DNA of 35,185 bases from Candidatus Fraserbacteria bacterium (GTDB lineage: Bacteria; Bipolaricaulota; Bipolaricaulia; RBG-16-55-9). The notes below the pieces were generated by a model. The model did no database searches. It was not told where the DNA came from and saw only the letters and a program-made list of their open reading frames with translations. The position numbers and the translations under genes are program-made. Every line of letters starts with the position of its first letter. Position 1 is the first letter of the stretch. This document shows positions 900-8,198 of this stretch, in pieces. The stretch covers positions 12,192 to 47,376 of the forward strand of contig JBBIOR010000013.1 in the NCBI GenBank assembly GCA_037443265.1. The letters run 5' to 3'.

Positions 900-2618
900 C
901 TATGAGAGATGGAAGGCTCTTCTTAGGCCCGCTGCAGCACTCCCCACGGCGCTAGATCCGAAGTCGAACGATAGGCTGGCCGCCTGGAAGAGCTCAGGCA
1001 GCGGCCTAGTCCCCCCCAGCGCCAGAGCCTTCCGATAGGCACGCACGGCCTCCGCTCTTTTCTGCTGCGCCCGCAGCCAGATCCCCAGCGCCCCCAGCTG
1101 AGCAATCCCATATTCAATATAATAGAACGGATGCAGGAAGAGATGGAGTTGGCGATGCCAAGCGGCCCGCAGCGCCTCTTCATAGCCCTCCCAGCTCTCA
1201 ATCCCCCCAAAGCGCTCATGGAGCTTGAGCCACTGCTGCTCACGCTCCGCCCGAGAATGCTTAGGATGAGTGTAGATCCAGTGCTGGAAGGCATCGATGG
1301 TCGCAATCCAAGCGAGAATCCTCACAATACCCTCCAGATGCTCTCTCCTGGAGCGCTCTGCTTCTTGCGGGGAATAGAAGACTTCCAGATAGGGTGAACT
1401 TAAAAGCTCCATGCCCATCGAAGCTACCTCGCAGAATTCAATGGGCGCGTGGCGATAGAAGTGAAGCGGCTCCTGGCGGGTGGCGAAGGTGTGGAAGGCG
1501 TGGCCCCCCTCGTGCAGGAGCGTCCGCACGTCGCTATCGCGCCCCACGGCATTCATGAAGATGAACGGTAGACGCCGCTCCGCCAGCGTGGCCTGATATC
1601 CCCCAGGGGCCTTGCCCTTGCGGCTCTCCAGCTCCAGAAGCCCCAGCTCGGCCATCTGCCGAAACTGTTCGCCCAGCTCCGGGTCCACCTGCTCAAAGAT
1701 CTCCCGACAGCCCTCGACGAGTTCATTCGCTGTGGAAAAGGGCCGAAGAGGAGGGCGTCCTTGAGGATCGACGTTCAAGTCCCAGGGGCGAAGCTGCTTG
1801 AGGCCCATCTGTCGTTGCCTCTTGTGCTGAAGCTCCCTCATCAGCGGGACAATGTATTGTTCGACTGCCTCGTGGAAGCGGAAGCAATCTTCCGGCGTAT
1901 AATCGAAGCGCTCGTATTTGCGAAAGACGAAATCGCGATAGTTCGAAAATCCGGCGTTCTGGGCGATCTTATGACGCCGTGCAATCAGTTCATCGTAGAT
2001 CTCATCAAGCTCCCCTCGGTCTTGCAGGCGGCGCTCGGCAATCAGCTCCCAAGCCTCGCGGCGCACATCTTGAGAGAGCTCTTCCAGATAGCGGGCCATC
2101 TGTTGGAGCGTCTGCTCCTTGCCGTCGTAGCTTACAGTCATGGCCCCGCAGATCTTCTGATACCGCTGGCCCAGTTTGTCATCCTCGGTCTCTAAGGGCA
2201 CGTTCTCTTTGCGAAAGAGAGCGACGGCATTTGCAAATTTGCGATCGAGCACCTCATAGCGTCTCTTAGGCAGCTTGGCACGCGCCGGGCTCGATAGATA
2301 TTTCTCCTGCAGACGATGGAAGCGCGGCTTAAGAAGCGGCTCGATCTCCTCGATGAACTGCAAATAGGCCCGTTCATACTCGGGGTTGTCCGTCTGGCAC
2401 GTCATGCGAATGTGCCGAATGGAGCCCTCTTCATAGAGGGCCGAGGCCAGTTCCGACTGATCCAATAGCCAACTCTCCAGGTCTTCTCGGCTGCCCAGCG
2501 GACGCCTCTCCAGATCATCGAAGAGCGGCTCAATCTCTGCCCAGTCGCCTAAATTGAGCCTCTCCGGTACAAAGCGCCGGGGATACTCGCGCGGCAATCT
2601 TGCAAAATCTAAGGCCAT
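900..2618 (-). CDS. M3 family oligoendopeptidase (PepF-like)
   Basis: HEGGH zinc motif, GKAPGGY, FCEVASMGMEL, HLFLHPFYYIEY. The true start is MALDFARL at 2618 with AGGAGG 6 nt upstream. The ORF-track extension to 2894 overlaps pspA. Confidence 0.92.
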   Translation of the reverse strand: MALDFARLPREYPRRFVPERLNLGDWAEIEPLFDDLERRPLGSREDLESWLLDQSELASALYEEGSIRHIRMTCQTDNPEYERAYLQFIEEIEPLLKPRFHRLQEKYLSSPARAKLPKRRYEVLDRKFANAVALFRKENVPLETEDDKLGQRYQKICGAMTVSYDGKEQTLQQMARYLEELSQDVRREAWELIAERRLQDRGELDEIYDELIARRHKIAQNAGFSNYRDFVFRKYERFDYTPEDCFRFHEAVEQYIVPLMRELQHKRQRQMGLKQLRPWDLNVDPQGRPPLRPFSTANELVEGCREIFEQVDPELGEQFRQMAELGLLELESRKGKAPGGYQATLAERRLPFIFMNAVGRDSDVRTLLHEGGHAFHTFATRQEPLHFYRHAPIEFCEVASMGMELLSSPYLEVFYSPQEAERSRREHLEGIVRILAWIATIDAFQHWIYTHPKHSRAEREQQWLKLHERFGGIESWEGYEEALRAAWHRQLHLFLHPFYYIEYGIAQLGALGIWLRAQQKRAEAVRAYRKALALGGTRPLPELFQAASLSFDFGSSAVGSAAAGLRRAFHLS

Positions 2619-2649
2619 TTCAGACCTCCTAACGTCCCATTTGAGATGG

Positions 2650-2678
2650 AATATACCATGGGCGAGGCCAGGGCGCAA
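2650..2678 (-). promoter_or_regulatory. promoter of the M3 peptidase
   Basis: TTGCGC-17 bp-TATATT with an extended TGn; divergent from the pspA promoter. Confidence 0.55.
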
Positions 2679-2690
2679 AATACGCCGAGA

Positions 2691-2719
2691 TTGACACTTC
2701 TGGAAGCAGTCTTTATACT
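2691..2719 (+). promoter_or_regulatory. near-consensus sigma70 promoter of the pspA operon
   Basis: TTGACA-17 bp-TATACT, followed by AGGAGG/GGAGG SD sequences and the ATG at 2743. Confidence 0.75.
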
Positions 2720-2742
2720 CCTCCCATAGGAGGGAGGGCACC

Positions 2743-3450
2743 ATGCTACAGCGACTCTGGACGGTGCTGCGCTCATTCTTCGGGGCGCTTTTGCGCCGGG
2801 CGGAAGATCCAGAACTGCTGCTCCGCCAATATATGGACGATCTGCGGGCGAAGCTGCCCAAGCTGCGAGCCACCGTGGCCGAAGTGATGGCCACCGAGAT
2901 TCAATTACAGCAGCAAGCCGATCATCTCAAGAGACAGATCGAAGATTTTGACAAGCAGATTGTGGCGGCCCTCAAGCTGGGCTATGAAGAAGAGGCCAAG
3001 ACGCTGATCGCCGCCAAGGCGATGGCCGAAGAGAGTCTGCAAGACACCCAAGAGCAACTTTTGACGGCCCAGAAGGCCTCCGAGCAGGCGAAGAAGGCCC
3101 TGGAAGATTATCAGCGCGAGATGGAGCCGAAGATCGCAGAGGCCAAGCGCTTAATTGGCCAAGCGAAGTTGGCACAAATGCAGCAAGAGCTGGCCGGGCT
3201 GATGACGGCCTTTGAGATAGGCCAGCCCACGGACGTCCTAGAACGCATGCGGGAGAAGGTGGCGGAGCGGACGGCTCGGGCCCAAGCGCGCGTGGAACTG
3301 GCCACTACCGGCGTGGACGTGCGTCTTCGGGAGATCCGCCGGGCCACCGCCCAGATCGGAGTTGAAGAACAATTGACCGAATACAAGCGCCGGCTGGGGA
3401 TGCTCCCCGCCCCAGAGGCCCCAACCGGCAGCGGCAAGCCGCCTCAATAG
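2743..3450 (+). CDS. pspA: PspA/IM30 (Vipp1, ESCRT-III-like) family protein
   Basis: N-terminal amphipathic helix followed by AEDPELLLRQYMDDL, long coiled coil, ERMREKV...ARAQA, and VEEQLTEYKRRLG at the C-terminus; 235 aa. Confidence 0.88.
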   Translation: MLQRLWTVLRSFFGALLRRAEDPELLLRQYMDDLRAKLPKLRATVAEVMATEIQLQQQADHLKRQIEDFDKQIVAALKLGYEEEAKTLIAAKAMAEESLQDTQEQLLTAQKASEQAKKALEDYQREMEPKIAEAKRLIGQAKLAQMQQELAGLMTAFEIGQPTDVLERMREKVAERTARAQARVELATTGVDVRLREIRRATAQIGVEEQLTEYKRRLGMLPAPEAPTGSGKPPQ

Positions 3451-3466
3451 ATTCGTTCCGGCTAAG

Positions 3467-4000
3467 ATGAAATGCCCCCGTTGTGGCCTGATTGTGAAGG
3501 ACCGCCTGCCCCAGTGTCGCGGCTGCGGGTTCCGCATCGAGCAGTTGGATCGCAAGCTCAAAGCTGTCCCGAAGAGGATCGGCTTTGTCAACGACTGGGC
3601 CGGGATGCTCTCCCCCCAAGAGAAGAGTCAACTGGAAGACCGTCTCGCTCACTGGCAAAGAGAATTGGGCGGTGAATTGGTGGTGGCGACGGTGAAGTCC
3701 ACCAGACCCGCCAAGCCTGCGGAGTATGCCTTCTGGCTCTTCAATCGCTGGCAGATAGGCGGCGAGACCCATGCGGGTTTATTAATCTTGCTGGCCCAAA
3801 AGGAGCGCCGCATTGAGTGCGAGGTGGGCTACGCTTGGGAGCCGATCCTCTCGGATTTAGAGTCAGGCCGAGTGTTAGATGAGTGCGTGCTTCCCCGCTT
3901 AAAAGAGGGCCAAATCTACGAAGCTCTCAGGCAGGGCCTGGAGCAGTGCGCCCAGATCATTCAGCAGGTTGCCTTACCCAAACCGGGTCCTTCTTCGTGA
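3467..4000 (+). CDS. TPM-domain protein with N-terminal Zn ribbon, apparently soluble
   Basis: CPRC...CRGC followed by a TPM core (VNDWAGML, ELVVATV, LFNRWQIG, GLLILLA..ERRIECEVGY). No signal peptide or TM helix seen. Confidence 0.82.
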   Translation: MKCPRCGLIVKDRLPQCRGCGFRIEQLDRKLKAVPKRIGFVNDWAGMLSPQEKSQLEDRLAHWQRELGGELVVATVKSTRPAKPAEYAFWLFNRWQIGGETHAGLLILLAQKERRIECEVGYAWEPILSDLESGRVLDECVLPRLKEGQIYEALRQGLEQCAQIIQQVALPKPGPSS

Positions 4001-4011
4001 GGGCGAAAGCC

Positions 4012-5148
4012 ATGCGACTATCAGAGTTCTTCTGCCGGCTGTCAGCTCTGATCGCACTGGCGCTTGTTGTCGCCTGGGCTTGGGCGTTTGTTCCAGAAAT
4101 CTGGGCCCAGAGGCCGGAGGATGTGCCCAACCCTAGGGCATGGAACGCCTGGGTGAGCGATATGGCCAATGTGATTGACGACAAGACGGAGCAAGAGCTC
4201 AATGCCCTGCTCGACTCCCTCAAGCGCCAGACCGGCGCAGAGATCGCTGTGGTCACGATTCGACGCGCGCAAGGCCGCGCACCCAAGGACTTTGCGACCG
4301 AACTGTTCAATCGCTGGCAGATCGGAGAACGCGGGCGAGATAATGGGGTACTGGTCTTGCTCTCGGTGGAGGATCGCCGCATTGAGGTGGAGACCGGCTA
4401 TGGCGTGGAGCCCTTCTTGCCCGATGGCAAAATAGGCGAGATTTTAGATGAGCATGTGCTCCCGCGCTTGCGGCAGGGCGATTATAGTGGAGGTCTTTTA
4501 GCGGGAGTGCGGGCCATGATCGCGGTGCTTCAGGGTGCCAGCTGGGATGGGGATAGGGTGCCCAAAGAGGGGCGAGGATTTCCCTTGGGCACACTGGTGC
4601 TCCTGCTGATTGCGGCAGCCGCAGGCTATGGCCTGTGGCGCTCCAAAAGACGCCTCTGTCCCCAGTGTAATAGGCCCATGCGACGGCTGACAGAAGAGCA
4701 AGACGATGCGTATCTAGAATATGCGCAGAGATTTGAAGAGGAGCTTGGCAGTGTGGACTATCGCGTCTGGCGCTGTGACGATTGCCAGATCAACCACATC
4801 GAGCCCGCGACCCGCTGGTTCAGCGGCTATGAAGAATGCCCGCAGTGTGGCCACCGGACTCTCTCGATAAGATCGTACAGGCTGCGCGAACCCACCTACG
4901 AGCACGCGGGAGTAGAAGAGACCGTCCGCTCGTGTAGCTTCCCCAAATGCCGCTATGAGACTGTCAAGCGGCATCGCATCCCACGCTTGGAGCGTCCTCC
5001 TGTGATCATCGTCCCCGGTAGTGGGGGCTCTTGGAGAGGTTCTTTGGGGTCAGGCGGCTGGCGAGGCGGAGGCCTGGGACTGGGAGGAGGAGGAGGGAGC
5101 TTCGGCGGCGGCCGATCCGGAGGGGGCGGGGCCGGACGCAGCTTCTAA
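4012..5148 (+). CDS. TPM-domain membrane protein with C-terminal Zn ribbons and Gly-rich tail
   Basis: Signal peptide from ATG 4012; TPM core (VSDMANVID, EIAVVTI, LFNRWQIG..GRDNGVLVLLS.EDRRIEVETGYGVE..LPD); TM helix; CPQC, CDDC, CPQC and CSFPKC; tail GGGSFGGGRSGGGGAGRSF. Confidence 0.88.
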   Translation: MRLSEFFCRLSALIALALVVAWAWAFVPEIWAQRPEDVPNPRAWNAWVSDMANVIDDKTEQELNALLDSLKRQTGAEIAVVTIRRAQGRAPKDFATELFNRWQIGERGRDNGVLVLLSVEDRRIEVETGYGVEPFLPDGKIGEILDEHVLPRLRQGDYSGGLLAGVRAMIAVLQGASWDGDRVPKEGRGFPLGTLVLLLIAAAAGYGLWRSKRRLCPQCNRPMRRLTEEQDDAYLEYAQRFEEELGSVDYRVWRCDDCQINHIEPATRWFSGYEECPQCGHRTLSIRSYRLREPTYEHAGVEETVRSCSFPKCRYETVKRHRIPRLERPPVIIVPGSGGSWRGSLGSGGWRGGGLGLGGGGGSFGGGRSGGGGAGRSF

Positions 5149-5154
5149 TCTAAA

Positions 5155-5904
5155 ATGAAGAGAGAGATGACTGACTCCAAGGAGCGCCTATCTCAAGAAG
5201 GCTTCACCGAGGAAGAAGTCGATGCCATTTTGCAGCGGGCGGCAGAGCTGCAAAGCCGGGCCGAGCGGGCTGAGTACCTCTCGCTCTCGCCCGAGGCCTT
5301 AAAGCAGGGAGCCGGGGCCGCGGGTATCCCTGAAGAATTGGTCGAGCAGGCCATCCGCGAGCTTAAGGCCGAGCGCGAGCAGAAGGCCGCTCGCCGCGCG
5401 GCCCGCCAGCACACATGGACCATAGCCGGCATCCTGCTGGGAGGCTTCCTGCTCCTCTCGGCCTTCTACAGCTACGGGGCGCTTAGCAGCCGGCTGGCCG
5501 AAGTGGAGCAAAGACGAGCCCAGTTAGAAAATGTGCTGCAGAGGCGCCAAGACCTGCTACAGAACCTCATGCCGCTGGCCAAAGAATCCGCTTCTAGCGA
5601 GCGCCAACTGTTAGCTTCCATCGAAGGGCTGATCGAGCAATTACAGCAAGCCAAGAGGCTCGAGGAGCGTCAGGCTCTGGAACAGAAGTTGAGCGAAGCG
5701 GCGAGCCGGCTGGGCACGGTTCTTTCCGGATTCCGGGACGAGATCGCCGGAGCAGAGAATCGCATTGCCGTAGAGCGCCAGCGCTACAATGAGGCCGTAG
5801 CTTCCTATAATAGAGCGGCCCGCAGCTTCCCCGTCTCTCTCATCCGGCCGCTTTTGGGATTTCCCGCCCGCTTGCCCTCCTTCCAGCAACCGGAGAGTCG
5901 CTGA
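5155..5904 (+). CDS. atypical LemA-family membrane protein with extra N-terminal helical domain
   Basis: After a TM helix: QLENVLQRRQDLLQNL and EIAGAENRIAVERQRYNEAVASYN...FP..LI..LLGF, both LemA hallmarks. About 85 aa precede the TM. An alternative start lies at 5167. Confidence 0.75.
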   Translation: MKREMTDSKERLSQEGFTEEEVDAILQRAAELQSRAERAEYLSLSPEALKQGAGAAGIPEELVEQAIRELKAEREQKAARRAARQHTWTIAGILLGGFLLLSAFYSYGALSSRLAEVEQRRAQLENVLQRRQDLLQNLMPLAKESASSERQLLASIEGLIEQLQQAKRLEERQALEQKLSEAASRLGTVLSGFRDEIAGAENRIAVERQRYNEAVASYNRAARSFPVSLIRPLLGFPARLPSFQQPESR

Positions 5905-5907
5905 GGC

Positions 5908-6417
5908 TCAAGGTGTCTTCTGCTGAAGGCCCTGCCATAAACATCGCACGTACACGATCTGTCCAGCGTGATAAAGATAATGCTCGATCATCATCTGGAA
6001 GAACTCTTCCAGGGTGCGCTCGCCTCTGCCCTCGGGAGTAGGATATGTGTGAGAAAGCTCTTCGTCTGTCAGAGAATCGAGCGCTTGCCGGAGGGCGCCA
6101 TAGCCCTCCTCGGCCAGCTTAAGGGCCGCTGGAAGATCTCCTCCTTCGGCCGAGAAGCGCGCTTGCAGCTCCTCCCAGCTCAGTCTGCGATGGCCCAGCG
6201 CCTGATCCAGCTGATAGAGACTGTCGCCCCCCACGTGGAAGACGATCTCTAGAATAGACCCTCTCATCCAGGGGAAGCCTTGATAGGCCGGAGGAATCCA
6301 GAGGGCTTCTTCGGGCCGAATGCCCTTGAGAGCGGATTTGAAGGAGTGCCAGCGGCTCTCCTCATAAGCCGACTTAAGAGCTCGCTTCAGCTGCTCGATG
6401 ATGATCTGTGAGGCCAT
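5908..6417 (-). CDS. DinB/YfiT-family (bacillithiol/mycothiol transferase-like) metalloprotein
   Basis: SILEIVFHV and MIEHYLYHAGQI His motifs; 169 aa, helical. Confidence 0.8.
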   Translation of the reverse strand: MASQIIIEQLKRALKSAYEESRWHSFKSALKGIRPEEALWIPPAYQGFPWMRGSILEIVFHVGGDSLYQLDQALGHRRLSWEELQARFSAEGGDLPAALKLAEEGYGALRQALDSLTDEELSHTYPTPEGRGERTLEEFFQMMIEHYLYHAGQIVYVRCLWQGLQQKTP

Positions 6418-6428
6418 GGCTTTCGCTC

Positions 6429-6457
6429 ATTCTAGAAAGGGCTGCCCTGGGAGTCAA
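6429..6457 (-). promoter_or_regulatory. promoter of the DinB gene (very short leader)
   Basis: TTGACT-17 bp-TAGAAT, 11 nt to ATG 6417. Confidence 0.65.
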
Positions 6458-6463
6458 ATCCCC

Positions 6464-6493
6464 TTGACGTGTAGGGGAGGGTCTTCATATAAT
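6464..6493 (+). promoter_or_regulatory. promoter of tRNA-Pro
   Basis: TTGACG-18 bp-TATAAT, 11 nt upstream of the tRNA. Confidence 0.75.
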
Positions 6494-6504
6494 GCAAAGA
6501 GCTG

Positions 6505-6578
6505 CGGAGAGTGGCGCAGTCGGCTAGCGCGCACGGTTTGGGACCGTGAGGTCGCCGGTTCGAATCCGGCCTCTCCGA
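6505..6578 (+). tRNA. tRNA-Pro (anticodon TGG)
   Basis: Acceptor stem CGGAGAG/CTCTCCG, anticodon arm CACGG-TTTGGGA-CCGTG, T-arm GCCGG-TTCGAAT-CCGGC; followed by CCT. Confidence 0.96.
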
Positions 6579-6602
6579 CCTGAGGCTTAATCCATCTCCC
6601 GC

Positions 6603-6632
6603 TTGTCAAGTACTCCCACGATGCGCTACGAT
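6603..6632 (+). promoter_or_regulatory. probable dnaX promoter (leaderless-type)
   Basis: TTGTCA-18 bp-TACGAT, 9 nt to ATG 6642; no SD. Confidence 0.55.
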
Positions 6633-6641
6633 CATTGAGCC

Positions 6642-8198
6642 ATGAGCCGGCAGATTCCCGTACATCAAGCGCTCTATCGCAAGTGGCGGCCCCAGAGATT
6701 TTCAGAGGTCGTCGGCCAGCCCTACACCGTCCAGACGCTCAAAAACGCCATCGCTCAGGGCAAGATCACCCATGCGTATCTCTTCGCCGGCCCGCGCGGC
6801 ACAGGCAAGACGAGTGTGGCCCGCATCTTCGCTAAAGCCATCAACTGCCAGAAGCGAAAAGAGGCCGAGCCGTGTAACGAGTGTCCTAGCTGCCAGCGGA
6901 TCACCCGCGGCAGCGCTCTGGATGTCATTGAGATCGACGGCGCTTCCAACCGCGGCATAGATCAAATAAGACAGCTCCGCGAAGAAGTGAATTTTGCGCC
7001 CGCCGAAGGCCGCTACAAAGTCTACATCATCGATGAAGTCCACATGCTCACCAACGAAGCCTTCAATGCGCTGCTTAAAACGCTCGAAGAGCCGCCCGAG
7101 CGGGTCATCTTCATCTTTGCCACCACCGAGCCTCACAAAGTCCCGGCCACGGTGCTCTCCCGCTGCCAGGCCTTCGAATTCAAGAACATCCCGCAAGAGC
7201 AGATCTCTTCCCATCTGGCACAGATCGCCCATCATGAGGGACTTAAGATCGAAGAGGATGCTCTCAGCGCCATCTCCCGCCACGCCCGCGGCGCGCTGCG
7301 CGATGCCCTCGTACTCCTAGAGCAGCTCGTCTCCTTCAAAGGGCTCAAGAGCATTGAAGCTCACGATCTCTATGAGATCCTGGGGCTGCCCCCTCAGGAA
7401 CTGCTCGATGAGTTTCTCAAAGCCCTCCTGGCGGCGGACGGAACGAGAGCCCTCCAACTCATCGCGGATCTGGCTGAGCGCGGACGTGATCTCGAACTCT
7501 TCGTCGAAGAGCTCCTCCATCGCAGTCGCGATCTGCTCATAGAGAAGCTCTCCGCGCAAGCCAGAGAATTTCCTGGCAGCGCTCAAGACCTTGTGCGCCT
7601 GACCGGGCAGCTTTTGGAGATAAAGCAACAGATGCGCTACGCCTTTGAAAAGCGCATGTTTCTAGAGATCAAAGCCCTGGAGCTCGCTCACAGCCAGGGC
7701 AAAGGAGTAAAGTCTCCCCCAGCGCCCACGGCGGAAGCGCCCTCCCCTCCACCAGCACCGCGCGCAACTCCCCTGAAGAAGAGGGCGCCAGCGAGGGCCA
7801 CCCCGGCCGTATCGACTCCCGATCCCCCACCCGAAGAGCCACCCAGAGATTCCACGCCGGAGGGAAGCGATCGTTGGCAGAAGCTTCTCGAACGGGCCAA
7901 GAAGGAGAAGATCGCACTCCACGCCCTTCTGGCCGAGGCCCAGGTCCGCGAGGAAGAAGGCACTCTTAGGATCGAGTACTCACCAGACTTCAGCTTCCAC
8001 AAAGATCGCCTGGAGCAGCCGGAGAACCTTCGATTTTTGCAATCTTTGGCGAAAGAGATCTACGGGAACGTTCAGCTGAAGATCGGCTTCTCAGCAGGGG
8101 AGACTCGCGCAGAAGCGCCTGAAAAATCCAAGGCAGAAGCGCTCCGCGAGAAAGCAGAGTTGGTCCGCCGGACCTTTGACGGCAAGATCGTCGAGTGA
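6642..8198 (+). CDS. dnaX: DNA polymerase III subunit gamma/tau
   Basis: ALYRKWRPQRF, Walker A GPRGTGKTS, Zn module C..PCNECPSC, EIDGASN, IIDEVHML, SRC motif, Pro-rich linker. Confidence 0.97.
   Translation: MSRQIPVHQALYRKWRPQRFSEVVGQPYTVQTLKNAIAQGKITHAYLFAGPRGTGKTSVARIFAKAINCQKRKEAEPCNECPSCQRITRGSALDVIEIDGASNRGIDQIRQLREEVNFAPAEGRYKVYIIDEVHMLTNEAFNALLKTLEEPPERVIFIFATTEPHKVPATVLSRCQAFEFKNIPQEQISSHLAQIAHHEGLKIEEDALSAISRHARGALRDALVLLEQLVSFKGLKSIEAHDLYEILGLPPQELLDEFLKALLAADGTRALQLIADLAERGRDLELFVEELLHRSRDLLIEKLSAQAREFPGSAQDLVRLTGQLLEIKQQMRYAFEKRMFLEIKALELAHSQGKGVKSPPAPTAEAPSPPPAPRATPLKKRAPARATPAVSTPDPPPEEPPRDSTPEGSDRWQKLLERAKKEKIALHALLAEAQVREEEGTLRIEYSPDFSFHKDRLEQPENLRFLQSLAKEIYGNVQLKIGFSAGETRAEAPEKSKAEALREKAELVRRTFDGKIVE

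What the first reader, a model, noticed from the sequence alone, without database searches (positions are those of the whole stretch)
2691..5904. PspA-TPM-TPM-LemA operon: candidate non-canonical envelope-stress/membrane-repair system
Seen: one near-consensus promoter precedes four tightly packed genes (gaps of 16, 11 and 6 nt): PspA/IM30, a soluble Zn-ribbon-TPM, a secreted TPM-TM-Zn-ribbon protein, and a modified LemA. No pspB/C/F or liaFSR is nearby. Established: PspA/Vipp1 are ESCRT-III-like membrane-remodelling polymers that usually work with membrane partners, and lemA-TPM gene clusters are widespread with unknown function. Inference: the TPM/LemA module replaces PspBC/LiaI as sensor or recruiter, with TPM domains on both sides of the membrane. 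PspA-TPM proximity may have been noted in comparative surveys, but I do not know this four-gene architecture as a characterised system.
Basis: partly seen in the sequence, partly recalled or inferred. Interest (0 to 1): 0.75.

Follow-up and report, generated by a model that had tools for sequence, protein, structure and literature searches.

The report
PspA operon with TPM and LemA
Four tightly packed genes join the membrane-repair protein PspA to two TPM-domain proteins and a LemA-type membrane protein, a conserved and laterally spread variant of the Bacillus PspA partner system that puts three poorly understood envelope protein families into one testable unit.

Summary
Window 2743-5904 (+) encodes PspA/IM30, a leaderless Zn-ribbon-TPM protein (ZT), an exported TPM-TM-double-Zn-ribbon-Gly-tail protein (TTZ) and an N-terminally extended LemA. 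A TTGACA-17-TATACT site lies upstream.

The same four-gene unit recurs in two other genomes of the order, one of them with different flanking genes. A PspA-AAA+-ZT-TTZ-LemA form occurs in another phylum.

Linkage to PspA is the exception. Of 35 TTZ + extended-LemA loci only 3 hold PspA. None of 79 PspA-centred metagenome loci holds ZT or TTZ.

The window's PspA is 69-75% identical to PspAs of another phylum and at most 29% identical to PspAs of its own order. The cassette therefore looks laterally acquired.

The LemA N-terminal helical domain also heads small membrane proteins encoded directly after this PspA subtype.

Closest known system: B. subtilis pspA-ydjGHI/samGHI, where the TPM protein YdjH anchors PspA. 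Here LemA stands where the SPFH protein stands. A 2026 preprint finds PspA in a LemA interactome.

Verdict: real and conserved, a new variant of a known kind. Physical coupling is inferred, not shown.

The parts
2691..2719 (+). Sigma-70-like promoter candidate, TTGACA-17-TATACT
   Evidence: 11 of 12; 5 sites found against 1.0 +/- 0.8 in shuffles. Kept as TTGGCA...TATACT in the closest relative. A consensus match only; no transcript data.
2743..3450 (+). PspA/IM30 (ESCRT-III-like), 235 aa. It belongs to a subtype with a near-invariant C-terminal E-Y-x-R-x-L-G motif.
   Evidence: Pfam PF04012, E 4e-32, residues 2-217. Below the NCBIfam equivalog cut-off for proteobacterial PspA (41.5 against 242.95 bits). 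Alignment A2 of 48 sequences: Y214 and L218 invariant; E213, R216 and G219 at 90% or more.
3467..4000 (+). ZT: leaderless Zn-ribbon (residues 3-20, window 3473-3526) plus TPM domain (residues 41-163, window 3587-3955); predicted cytoplasmic
   Evidence: Pfam PF04536, E 2.6e-29. No hydrophobic segment. All four Cys are invariant in 12 sequences, and M1-K2-C3-P4 is conserved, so there is no room for a signal peptide.
4012..5148 (+). TTZ: N-terminal signal or anchor (residues 2-32, window 4015-4107); extracytoplasmic TPM (residues 48-171, window 4153-4524); TM (residues 189-209, window 4576-4638); cytoplasmic tandem Zn-ribbon domain (residues 211-324, window 4642-4983); Gly-rich tail ending in RSF (window 4999-5145)
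   Evidence: Pfam PF04536, E 1.3e-40. Hydrophobic stretches. Eight Cys at least 95% conserved in 39 sequences, and a conserved FGGG-SGGGGAG tail. Model of residues 211-345: pLDDT 88.5, pTM 0.69; best fold rows are zinc ribbons (ZPR1 Z 6.2, NrdR, TFIIS). The TPM domain matches solved TPM domains 7TBR, 2KW7 and BA41 5ANP.
5155..5904 (+). Extended LemA (likely start 5167): cytoplasmic four-helix N-domain (residues 7-85, window 5173-5409); TM (residues 87-110, window 5413-5484); LemA domain (residues 122-238, window 5518-5868), predicted to lie outside the membrane
   Evidence: Pfam PF04011, E 3.8e-20. The profile of A1 matches the T. maritima LemA structure 2ETD at E 2.6e-43. The basic stretch KAARRAARQH precedes the TM. 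N-domain model: four helices, pLDDT 74.7, pTM 0.38. The N-domain is shared with small membrane proteins encoded next to PspA.

Best explanation
This is a conserved, laterally mobile cassette that couples an ESCRT-III-type PspA polymer to a membrane-spanning TPM/LemA scaffold.

Predicted layout:
- PspA and ZT (Zn-ribbon + TPM) are cytoplasmic.
- TTZ crosses the membrane, with its TPM domain outside and a double Zn-ribbon plus a Gly-rich tail inside.
- The extended LemA crosses the membrane, with a four-helix juxtamembrane domain inside and its LemA helical bundle outside (the topology reported for MamQ).

Proposed working, which is inferred:
- The outside TPM and LemA domains sit at, sense or shape a stressed or curved membrane patch.
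- The inside parts (the TTZ Zn-ribbons and tail, ZT, the LemA N-domain) form the docking platform that recruits or nucleates PspA on the cytoplasmic face.
- This parallels B. subtilis, where YdjG/YdjH/YdjI anchor PspA; here LemA takes the place of the SPFH protein.

Shown here: the gene order, the domains, their conservation, and recurrence of the cassette in different genomic contexts and phyla. Inferred: the topology, co-transcription, every physical contact, and the trigger.
For: (1) Domains and tight spacing.

(2) The unit recurs. A TTZ search of 184 genomes of the phylum gave full-length matches in only two genomes besides the window's own, at 77% and 65% identity. Both have PspA-ZT-TTZ-extended LemA in the same order; one has the same flanks, the other has SUF genes and malate dehydrogenase as flanks plus an extra TPM gene.

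(3) A second form, PspA-AAA+-ZT-TTZ(...)-LemA, occurs in two genomes of another phylum (L241/L051 and L240). It probably also occurs in L042, whose contig starts in a weak AAA-lid match (E 0.024).

(4) In three separate searches, hits for PspA, TTZ and extended LemA report the same longest-contig length for seven further contigs (20116, 19771, 4968, 7845, 8306, 47138 and 4391 nt). I read this as co-location, but it is not verified.

(5) Replacement pattern in the order (35 genomes). 30 have LemA and most have the ordinary ~190-aa form; in the rows compared by eye it lies within about 1 kb of a TPM gene. Only the three cassette genomes carry the divergent extended LemA as their sole LemA, together with this PspA subtype.

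(6) The N-domain of the extended LemA (residues 7-95, phmmer E about 1e-15 to 5e-17 in the four-sequence domain run) also heads small multi-TM proteins. These are encoded 6-40 nt after the same PspA subtype, or after PspA-AAA+, in 11 of 79 metagenome loci and 5 of 27 genome loci.

(7) Precedents read in papers:
- YdjH (SIG+TPM+TM) binds PspA and YdjI, and is required for PspA foci (PMC8581546, passages).
- The TPM domain of SamH is extracellular and the zinc finger of SamG is cytoplasmic (PMC13713150, passages).
- LemA proteins remodel membranes, and the PaLemA1 pull-down holds PspA (bioRxiv 10.64898/2026.10.21.759321; abstract and sections 7, 9, 13).

(8) The TTZ tail ends ...AGRSF. The reverse primers printed in PMC8581546 translate to ...SRGSF for YdjH and ...MGGGF for YdjG. 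This is a weak lead.
Against: PspA is absent from most loci that carry the module.
- Of 35 loci with TTZ next to an extended LemA, 3 hold PspA. 30 of the 35 had at least 1 kb of sequence upstream of the first core gene.
- A Pfam scan of 132 flanking ORFs from 34 of those loci found no PF04012.
- Five such genomes do encode a PspA elsewhere. In the one complete chromosome the nearer of its two PspA genes lies about 13 kb from the LemA. For the other four I did not compare positions.

Conversely, 0 of 79 PspA-centred metagenome loci hold ZT or TTZ. Of 27 genome loci fetched with about 7 kb downstream, only 2 do; the usual neighbour there is an AAA+ ATPase, hit in 17 of the 27, one of them divergently placed.

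The N-domain is not specific to PspA. Its profile finds 1,390 cluster representatives at E <= 0.001. Of 64 that I scanned, 18 are LemA fusions, 13 are 2TM-domain fusions and 5 are Ser/Thr kinase fusions.

No transcript, interaction or phenotype data exist for this cassette. The topology rests on hydrophobicity and charge only. LemA orientation differs between family members in the preprint.
Confidence: 0.55

Rival explanations
1. Autonomous envelope module with a co-regulated PspA. ZT-TTZ-LemA is a self-sufficient TPM/LemA system, for instance for assembly or repair of extracytoplasmic membrane complexes or for LemA-driven vesiculation. In this lineage pspA was simply placed under the same stress promoter. 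The proteins do not touch.
For: - The triad or dyad occurs without an adjacent PspA in 32 of 35 loci.
- Ordinary LemA-TPM pairs are near-universal in the order: LemA is found in 30 of 35 genomes.
- 29 of the 36 loci with a non-extended LemA had a TPM neighbour.
- Weak, below-cut-off similarity of TTZ to the photosystem II repair protein Psb32 (72.3 against 160 bits).
Against: - The same PspA subtype travels with ZT-TTZ-LemA in two architectures and two phyla.
- The cassette genomes have this as their only PspA and only LemA.
- B. subtilis shows direct binding between PspA and a TPM protein.
- PspA appears in a LemA pull-down.
Confidence: 0.3
2. LemA is the effector and PspA is its modulator. 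The outside LemA bundle is what bends the membrane (vesicle or invagination formation). PspA with ZT and TTZ acts as a stoichiometric brake or quality control on that activity, rather than being recruited for repair.
For: Preprint sections 9 and 13:
- LemA overproduction alone restructures membranes.
- PspA overexpression lowers vesicle yield, and the authors suggest a LemA:PspA balance.

In B. subtilis SamI restrains SamH activity (PMC13713150, passages).
Against: The data come from one proteobacterium whose LemAs have a different architecture. The preprint does not mention TPM (0 occurrences in the main text). Nothing in the sequence tells an effector from a recruiter.
Confidence: 0.1
3. Chance juxtaposition, or an assembly artefact of a metagenome-assembled genome.
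For: The genome is an 88%-complete bin in 44 contigs.
Against: - The same order and spacing occur in independent assemblies with different flanks.
- No composition break across the region (GC 0.57-0.61).
Confidence: 0.03

Closest known systems
Bacillus subtilis pspA-ydjGHI (pspA-samGHI) operon
   Same: - pspA comes first, followed by co-directional partner genes.
- One partner has the architecture signal + TPM + TM, with the TPM domain outside. [quoted passage not shown]
- Zn-ribbons sit on the cytoplasmic side.
- Gly-rich C-terminal tails end in F.
- No PspB/C.
   Different: - There is no SPFH/Band-7 gene in the operon. Band_7 genes lie on other contigs. A LemA protein holds the last position instead.
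- The Zn-ribbons are fused to the two TPM proteins, not to a YdjG-type protein or to the SPFH protein.
- A second, cytoplasmic TPM protein is present.
- Sequence relatedness to YdjG/H/I was not tested, because I held no B. subtilis sequences.
LemA/MamQ family membrane remodellers (bioRxiv 10.64898/2026.10.21.759321)
   Same: - A LemA domain above the Pfam cut-off that matches structure 2ETD.
- The predicted N-in, LemA-out topology is as described for MamQ.
- PspA is reported among the PaLemA1 pull-down partners.
   Different: - The link there is a proteomic hit in P. aeruginosa, with the genes in separate operons. Here pspA and lemA share an operon.
- TPM is not mentioned there.
- This LemA carries an extra ~85-residue N-domain.
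- It scores far below the NCBIfam MamQ cut-off (44.2 against 250 bits).
Ordinary LemA-TPM (YgcG-type) gene pairs and triads of unknown function
   Same: LemA lies next to an exported TPM-TM-Gly-tail protein. 29 of 36 loci with a non-extended LemA had a TPM neighbour, and this pairing is the common state in the window's own order.
   Different: - The extended LemA has a cytoplasmic N-domain.
- TTZ has an inserted double Zn-ribbon.
- There is an added cytoplasmic ZT.
- The module is linked to PspA.
PspA with a classical AAA+ ATPase (Ravi et al. [quoted passage not shown]
   Same: The window's PspA belongs to the subtype that mostly sits next to a ~580-aa AAA+ gene in another phylum. Two of those loci go on with ZT-TTZ.
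   Different: The window operon has no AAA+ gene. The held genome has no close relative of it: the best match is 28% identical over the ATPase core.
E. coli PspFABC and Bacillus LiaIH
   Same: A PspA-family effector is presumably brought to the membrane by integral membrane partners encoded beside it.
   Different: No PspB, PspC or PspF here (no sigma-54 type activator in the operon). The partner families are unrelated (TPM, LemA). LiaI/LiaF were not searched.

Membership tests
PspA/IM30 (PF04012) | Match to the family profile above the curated cut-off, over nearly the whole protein | tested here: met
   112 bits against a cut-off of 33.9; residues 2-217 match profile positions 3-217 of 220.
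PspA/IM30 (PF04012) | Equivalog of proteobacterial PspA (TIGR02977) or of LiaH | tested here: not met
   41.5 bits against a cut-off of 242.95; LiaH 15.8 against 380. It is a family member but not an ortholog of the studied proteins.
PspA/IM30 (PF04012) | ESCRT-III fold and polymer formation | not tested
   No model of PspA was made; it needs experiment.
TPM domain (PF04536) | Profile match above the cut-off; relatives with solved TPM folds | tested here: met
   ZT 102.2 bits and TTZ 138.8 bits against a cut-off of 22.1. TTZ matches 7TBR (E 1.6e-26), 2KW7 and BA41 5ANP. The two domains are 36% identical to each other.
LemA (PF04011) | Profile match above the cut-off, plus one TM helix before the helical bundle | tested here: met
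   72.7 bits against 26.2. The A1 profile matches 2ETD at E 2.6e-43. Hydrophobic stretch at residues 87-110. Atypical in that an ~85-residue domain precedes the TM.
MamQ (NF040966 equivalog) | Score above the curated cut-off | tested here: not met
   44.2 bits against 250.
pspA-ydjGHI/samGHI system | pspA followed by a SIG+TPM+TM membrane protein (YdjH/SamH type) | tested here: met
   TTZ has an N-terminal hydrophobic segment, a TPM domain and a TM. The architecture string in Ravi et al.'s supplement is given.
pspA-ydjGHI/samGHI system | Separate ZnR(s)+TM protein (YdjG/SamG type) | tested here: inconclusive
   Zn-ribbons are present but fused to the two TPM proteins. There is no stand-alone ZnR-TM gene in the operon.
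pspA-ydjGHI/samGHI system | SPFH/Band-7 protein with a Zn-ribbon as last gene (YdjI/SamI) | tested here: not met
   No Band_7 match in the four proteins. The genome's four Band_7 matches lie on contigs C10, C1 and C7, not on the window's contig C13.
pspA-ydjGHI/samGHI system | Partners bind PspA and are needed for its membrane foci | not testable with these tools
   Needs two-hybrid, pull-down or microscopy.
Classical Psp system (PspFABC) | PspB and PspC membrane partners | tested here: not met
   No PF06667 or PF04024 match in the held genome, which is 88% complete.
Photosystem II repair protein Psb32 (NF047379) | Score above the curated cut-off | tested here: not met
   TTZ 72.3 bits and ZT 19.9 bits against 160.

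The most novel reading that the evidence does not exclude
The cassette is a self-contained, transferable two-sided membrane-remodelling machine. An outside LemA bundle and TPM domain act on one face of a membrane patch and a PspA (ESCRT-III) polymer acts on the other. The two faces are coupled through the TM helices, the double Zn-ribbon and the juxtamembrane helical domain.

By extension, the very widespread LemA-TPM pairs of unknown function would in general be membrane adaptors for PspA encoded elsewhere in the genome.
Probability: 0.2. Interest if true: 0.8.

Novelty: new variant of a known kind. Interest (0 to 1): 0.55.

Why it matters
LemA and TPM/YgcG-type proteins are among the most widespread envelope proteins without an accepted function. 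How PspA is targeted outside the proteobacterial PspBC and Bacillus models is also an open question.

This cassette puts pspA, two TPM genes and lemA in one small operon that has moved between phyla as a unit. It gives genomic support, independent of proteomics, to two separate experimental hints: PspA-TPM in B. subtilis and PspA-LemA in P. aeruginosa.

It also offers a compact four-protein set that can be expressed in a laboratory host to test who binds whom, on which side of the membrane, and whether LemA can stand in for the SPFH protein.

Tried and rejected
- Complex prediction: PspA (alignment A2) with LemA residues 1-88 (alignment A1) scored 0.00 in both runs. The tool's verdict was 'no answer' and the controls were not run. 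It is no evidence either way.

- Expression: no RNA holder was listed. Only one DNA run holds the stretch, and it may be the source of the window.

- Fold of the LemA N-domain: the model has pTM 0.38, and Foldseek against PDB gave no row with E <= 0.001 (best 1.4). My impression that its two helix pairs resemble SHOCT-like bihelical units is recalled, not tested. Pfam at E <= 10 listed neither SHOCT nor DUF1707.

- Fold of the TTZ cytoplasmic domain: nothing with E <= 0.001 in Foldseek. VIA-align gave only zinc-ribbon rows with Z <= 6.2, so 'tandem zinc ribbon' is all I claim.

- ESM Atlas on TTZ residues 205-345: best score 0.89, unnamed clusters. A lead only.

- PADLOC: no family at a meaningful level (best E 0.0057), so no sign of a known anti-phage system.

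The co-location of PspA, TTZ and LemA on seven further contigs therefore rests only on equal contig lengths.

- The A2 profile search of five genomes missed PspAs that PF04012 then found. I do not use as evidence of absence.

- I considered that the 155-188-aa proteins next to PspA were short LemAs. I rejected this because Pfam finds no LemA in them and the match is to the N-domain only.

- I considered an MIT/MIM-type contact between the conserved PspA C-terminal motif and a partner. This is recalled knowledge only and was not tested.

- Literature. Searches for PspA+TPM+LemA, LemA+'TPM domain', 'LemA family'+TPM+operon+membrane, LemA/TPM_phosphatase/PF04536/PF04011/YgcG and LemA+'phage shock protein' found no description of this four-gene arrangement.
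  - LemA is absent from the main text and the one held supplement of PMC11237479.
  - TPM and LemA are absent from the main text and seven held supplements of PMC9239133.
  - TPM and LemA are absent from the review PMC7619361.
  - The web app of Ravi et al. and the preprint's extended data were not visible to me and may list such neighbourhoods.

Full report
OBSERVATION. Four co-directional ORFs lie at 2743-3450, 3467-4000, 4012-5148 and 5155-5904 on the + strand. All pass Pfam's curated cut-offs: PspA_IM30 (E 4e-32), TPM (2.6e-29), TPM (1.3e-40) and LemA (3.8e-20). The gaps are 16, 11 and 6 nt. Public gene calls of the last protein and its nearest relatives begin four residues later, at 5167, which would make the last gap 18 nt.

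A TTGACA-17-TATACT site (11 of 12) sits at 2691-2719, followed by a GGAGGGAGGG ribosome-binding stretch. The scan found 5 promoter-like sites in 2400-6700 against 1.0 +/- 0.8 in shuffles, and terminator-like sites were not enriched. The upstream gene is a divergent M3 peptidase. The downstream gene is a convergent DinB_2 gene whose stop lies 3 nt from the LemA stop. The held genome (1.69 Mb, 44 contigs, 88% complete) has one PspA match, one LemA match and four TPM matches, two of them here, and no PspB or PspC match.

ANATOMY AND PREDICTED TOPOLOGY.
- ZT starts directly with a CxxC...CxxC ribbon (residues 3-20) and has no hydrophobic segment. The four Cys and the M-K-C-P start are conserved in all 12 aligned relatives, so it has no signal peptide and should be cytoplasmic.
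- TTZ has a hydrophobic N-terminus (residues 2-32), a TPM domain (48-171), a TM helix (189-209) followed by RSKRR, eight Cys that are at least 95% conserved in 39 sequences, and a conserved Gly-rich tail.
- The TTZ cytoplasmic part folds confidently (pLDDT 88.5, pTM 0.69). Its only fold neighbours are zinc ribbons at low Z.
- The two TPM domains are paralogues, 36% identical.
- The LemA protein has an ~85-residue charged helical N-domain, a basic stretch, one hydrophobic helix (87-110) and then the LemA bundle, which matches the solved T. maritima LemA 2ETD. With no signal peptide before an 85-residue charged domain, N-in and LemA-out is the likeliest orientation. This is the topology the 2026 preprint draws for MamQ, while it treats PaLemA1 as the reverse.
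- So one TPM domain and the LemA bundle are predicted to lie outside. PspA, ZT, the double Zn-ribbon and the LemA N-domain are predicted to lie inside. All of this is inference from sequence.

IS THE ARRANGEMENT CONSERVED? A TTZ search of 184 genomes of the phylum gave matches in 34, but full-length matches only in two genomes besides the window's own: G104 (77% identity) and G075 (65%). Both carry PspA-ZT-TTZ-extended LemA in the same order. G104 also shares the flanks. G075 has SUF genes upstream and malate dehydrogenase downstream, plus one more TPM gene before pspA.

Within the order (35 genomes) LemA is found in 30, mostly as an ordinary ~190-aa form scoring about 185-213 bits. In the rows I compared by eye it lies within about 1 kb of a TPM gene. 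Only G000, G104 and G075 have the divergent extended LemA (60-72 bits) as their sole LemA, and only they have this PspA subtype.

LemA-CENTRED SURVEY. A scan of one genome per species with the extended-LemA alignment A1 kept 80 loci.
- 44 hold an extended LemA.
- 35 of these have TTZ directly upstream.
- 11 of the 35 also have ZT.
- 30 of the 35 had at least 1 kb of sequence upstream of the first core gene.
- A Pfam scan of 132 flanking ORFs from 34 of the loci found no PspA.

L051 reads PspA-AAA+-ZT-TTZ-(a cytochrome gene on the other strand)-LemA-LemA. L042 begins inside a weak AAA-lid match and then reads ZT-TTZ-LemA-LemA. Record titles place these loci in Armatimonadota, Calditrichia, Poribacteria and other groups. 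The TPM-TPM-LemA triad is therefore a widespread module of its own, and PspA linkage is the minority state. Five genomes that have the module but no adjacent PspA do encode a PspA elsewhere.

PspA-CENTRED SURVEYS. The window's PspA has many relatives at 70-78% identity, named by their sources as Fervidibacter or Armatimonadota proteins.

A scan of metagenome contigs with their alignment A2 gave 79 loci, and none has ZT or TTZ. Typical contexts are PstB-PhoU-PspA-AAA+ (about 581 aa), sometimes followed by a 188-aa membrane protein and two CNNM/CorC genes, or PspA followed after 6 nt by a 155-aa membrane protein.

In 201 genomes sampled from the phylum of the genome that holds L060 (record title Armatimonadota), 89 have a match at E <= 1e-20. 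I fetched about 7 kb downstream for 27 of the 31 best loci. For the other four I looked only at the 1.5-kb flanks. Among the 27:
- 17 have an AAA+ hit, one of them divergently placed;
- 5 have the small membrane protein;
- 2 (L240, L241) read PspA-AAA+-ZT-TTZ;
- 5 have none of these.

Of the other four, one has the AAA+ gene, one has nothing within 1.5 kb, and two are cut by contig ends.

Separately, hits for PspA, TTZ and extended LemA in three protein searches share the same longest-contig length for seven further contigs.

THE SHARED N-DOMAIN. The small proteins next to PspA are not LemAs: Pfam finds no LemA in them. They match only residues 7-95 of the window's LemA (phmmer E about 1e-15 to 5e-17 in the four-sequence domain run). 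An HMM of this domain finds them in 11 of 79 metagenome loci and 5 of 27 genome loci, always directly after PspA or after PspA-AAA+. The same juxtamembrane domain thus accompanies this PspA subtype on two different membrane anchors, which makes it my first candidate for the PspA-facing part.

The domain is not specific to PspA, however. Its profile finds 1,390 cluster representatives at E <= 0.001 (43 at <= 1e-10). Of 64 that I scanned from the best 150, 18 are LemA fusions, 13 carry the Pfam 2TM domain and 5 are Ser/Thr kinases.

LATERAL TRANSFER. By tblastn the window's PspA is 91% and 80% identical to those of the two sister cassettes and 69-75% identical to three PspAs of the other phylum. 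It is at most 29% identical to PspAs of six other genomes of its own order, and only two of those six match at all at E < 1e-3. The distribution is also patchy: 3 of 35 genomes in the order, and 1 of 14 in genus g9. Together this points to acquisition of the cassette across phyla. There is no composition break in the window. The held genome has no close relative of the partner AAA+ gene (best 28% identity).

WHAT IS KNOWN.
- Ravi et al. [quoted passage not shown] LemA does not occur in the text or in that supplement.
- Scholz et al. 2021 (PMC8581546, passages): YdjH interacts with PspA and YdjI in two-hybrid assays, and YdjG and YdjH are required for PspA and YdjI foci.
- The 2026 SamGHI paper (PMC13713150, passages) places the SamH TPM domain outside and the SamG zinc finger inside, and proposes that SamI restrains SamH.
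- The October 2026 preprint on LemA (abstract; sections 7, 9 and 13; find passages) reports membrane restructuring by 13 LemA proteins and PspA among the PaLemA1 pull-down partners. TPM does not occur in its main text.
- Popp et al. 2022 and the 2025 ESCRT-III review mention neither TPM nor LemA.
- Two earlier notes of this scan describe related mixtures on other DNA: an archaeal SPFH/Zn-ribbon/LemA/TPM cluster without PspA, and a phage TPM-like/LemA-like/PspA-like cluster. I did not test them.

READING. The best-supported account is a PspA system of the Bacillus YdjGHI kind in which the domain vocabulary (signal+TPM+TM, cytoplasmic Zn-ribbons, Gly-rich tails) is kept but re-partitioned, and a LemA protein replaces the SPFH protein. 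The membrane proteins form the platform that brings PspA to a membrane site.

The main rival is that ZT-TTZ-LemA is autonomous and merely shares a promoter with pspA in these lineages. The prevalence of PspA-less loci keeps that rival alive. Which protein is the effector (PspA or LemA) cannot be told from sequence.

The arrangement is a new variant of a known kind. The PspA-TPM and PspA-LemA links each have a published hint, but I found no description of the three families in one operon, of the cytoplasmic ZT partner, of the Zn-ribbon insertion in the TPM membrane protein, or of the N-domain shared with the PspA-adjacent small proteins.

Noticed in passing
L126:4019-11453 and 16 further loci (e.g. 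L237, L250, L254): The PspA subtype of the window usually sits directly before a ~580-aa AAA+ ATPase (one PF00004 domain detected in the C-terminal half). In several metagenome loci the order is PstB-PhoU-PspA-AAA+-small membrane protein-CNNM/CorC x2. Ravi et al. mention PspA with a two-AAA+-domain protein. The link to phosphate and Mg/Co-transport genes was not followed.
   Followed up: partly
proteins P0361, P0370, P0389, P0405, P0479 and P0385, P0392 and others: The ~80-residue helical N-domain of the extended LemA is a widespread juxtamembrane module (1,390 cluster representatives at E <= 0.001). It is also found after Ser/Thr protein kinase domains and before the Pfam 2TM domain. No Pfam family covers it at E <= 0.001.
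   Followed up: partly
L033:4839-5555 (G075 locus): In the third cassette genome an extra TM-TPM gene (238 aa) precedes pspA by about 60 nt, which gives three TPM genes in a row around pspA.
   Followed up: no
L043:6957-7634, L044:2419-3096, L045:5976-6653 and L045:997-1674: In the Calditrichia-type loci a conserved 225-aa protein follows the extended LemA. Three of the four copies give only weak multi-TM Pfam hints (7TM-type, E about 0.002); the copy upstream in L045 gives none.
   Followed up: no
L240:3-1100 (G316 locus): The TTZ gene after PspA-AAA+-ZT appears split into two ORF pieces (906-1100 and 3-782 on the minus strand). This may be a frameshift or an assembly error. The contig ends before any LemA.
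   Followed up: no
window 6505-6580: A tRNA-Pro (TGG) lies between the DinB_2 gene and dnaX. Two further 10-11 of 12 promoter-like sites lie just upstream of it, at 6429-6493, on opposite strands.
   Followed up: no
window 5904-5908: The LemA stop and the stop of the convergent DinB_2 gene (5908-6417, minus strand) are 3 nt apart. There is no room for a terminator hairpin between them.
   Followed up: no
G093:C27:160100-176533: In one genome of the order an unrelated PspA and two ordinary LemA genes lie on one contig within about 16 kb (9 kb and 15 kb apart). They are not adjacent.
   Followed up: no
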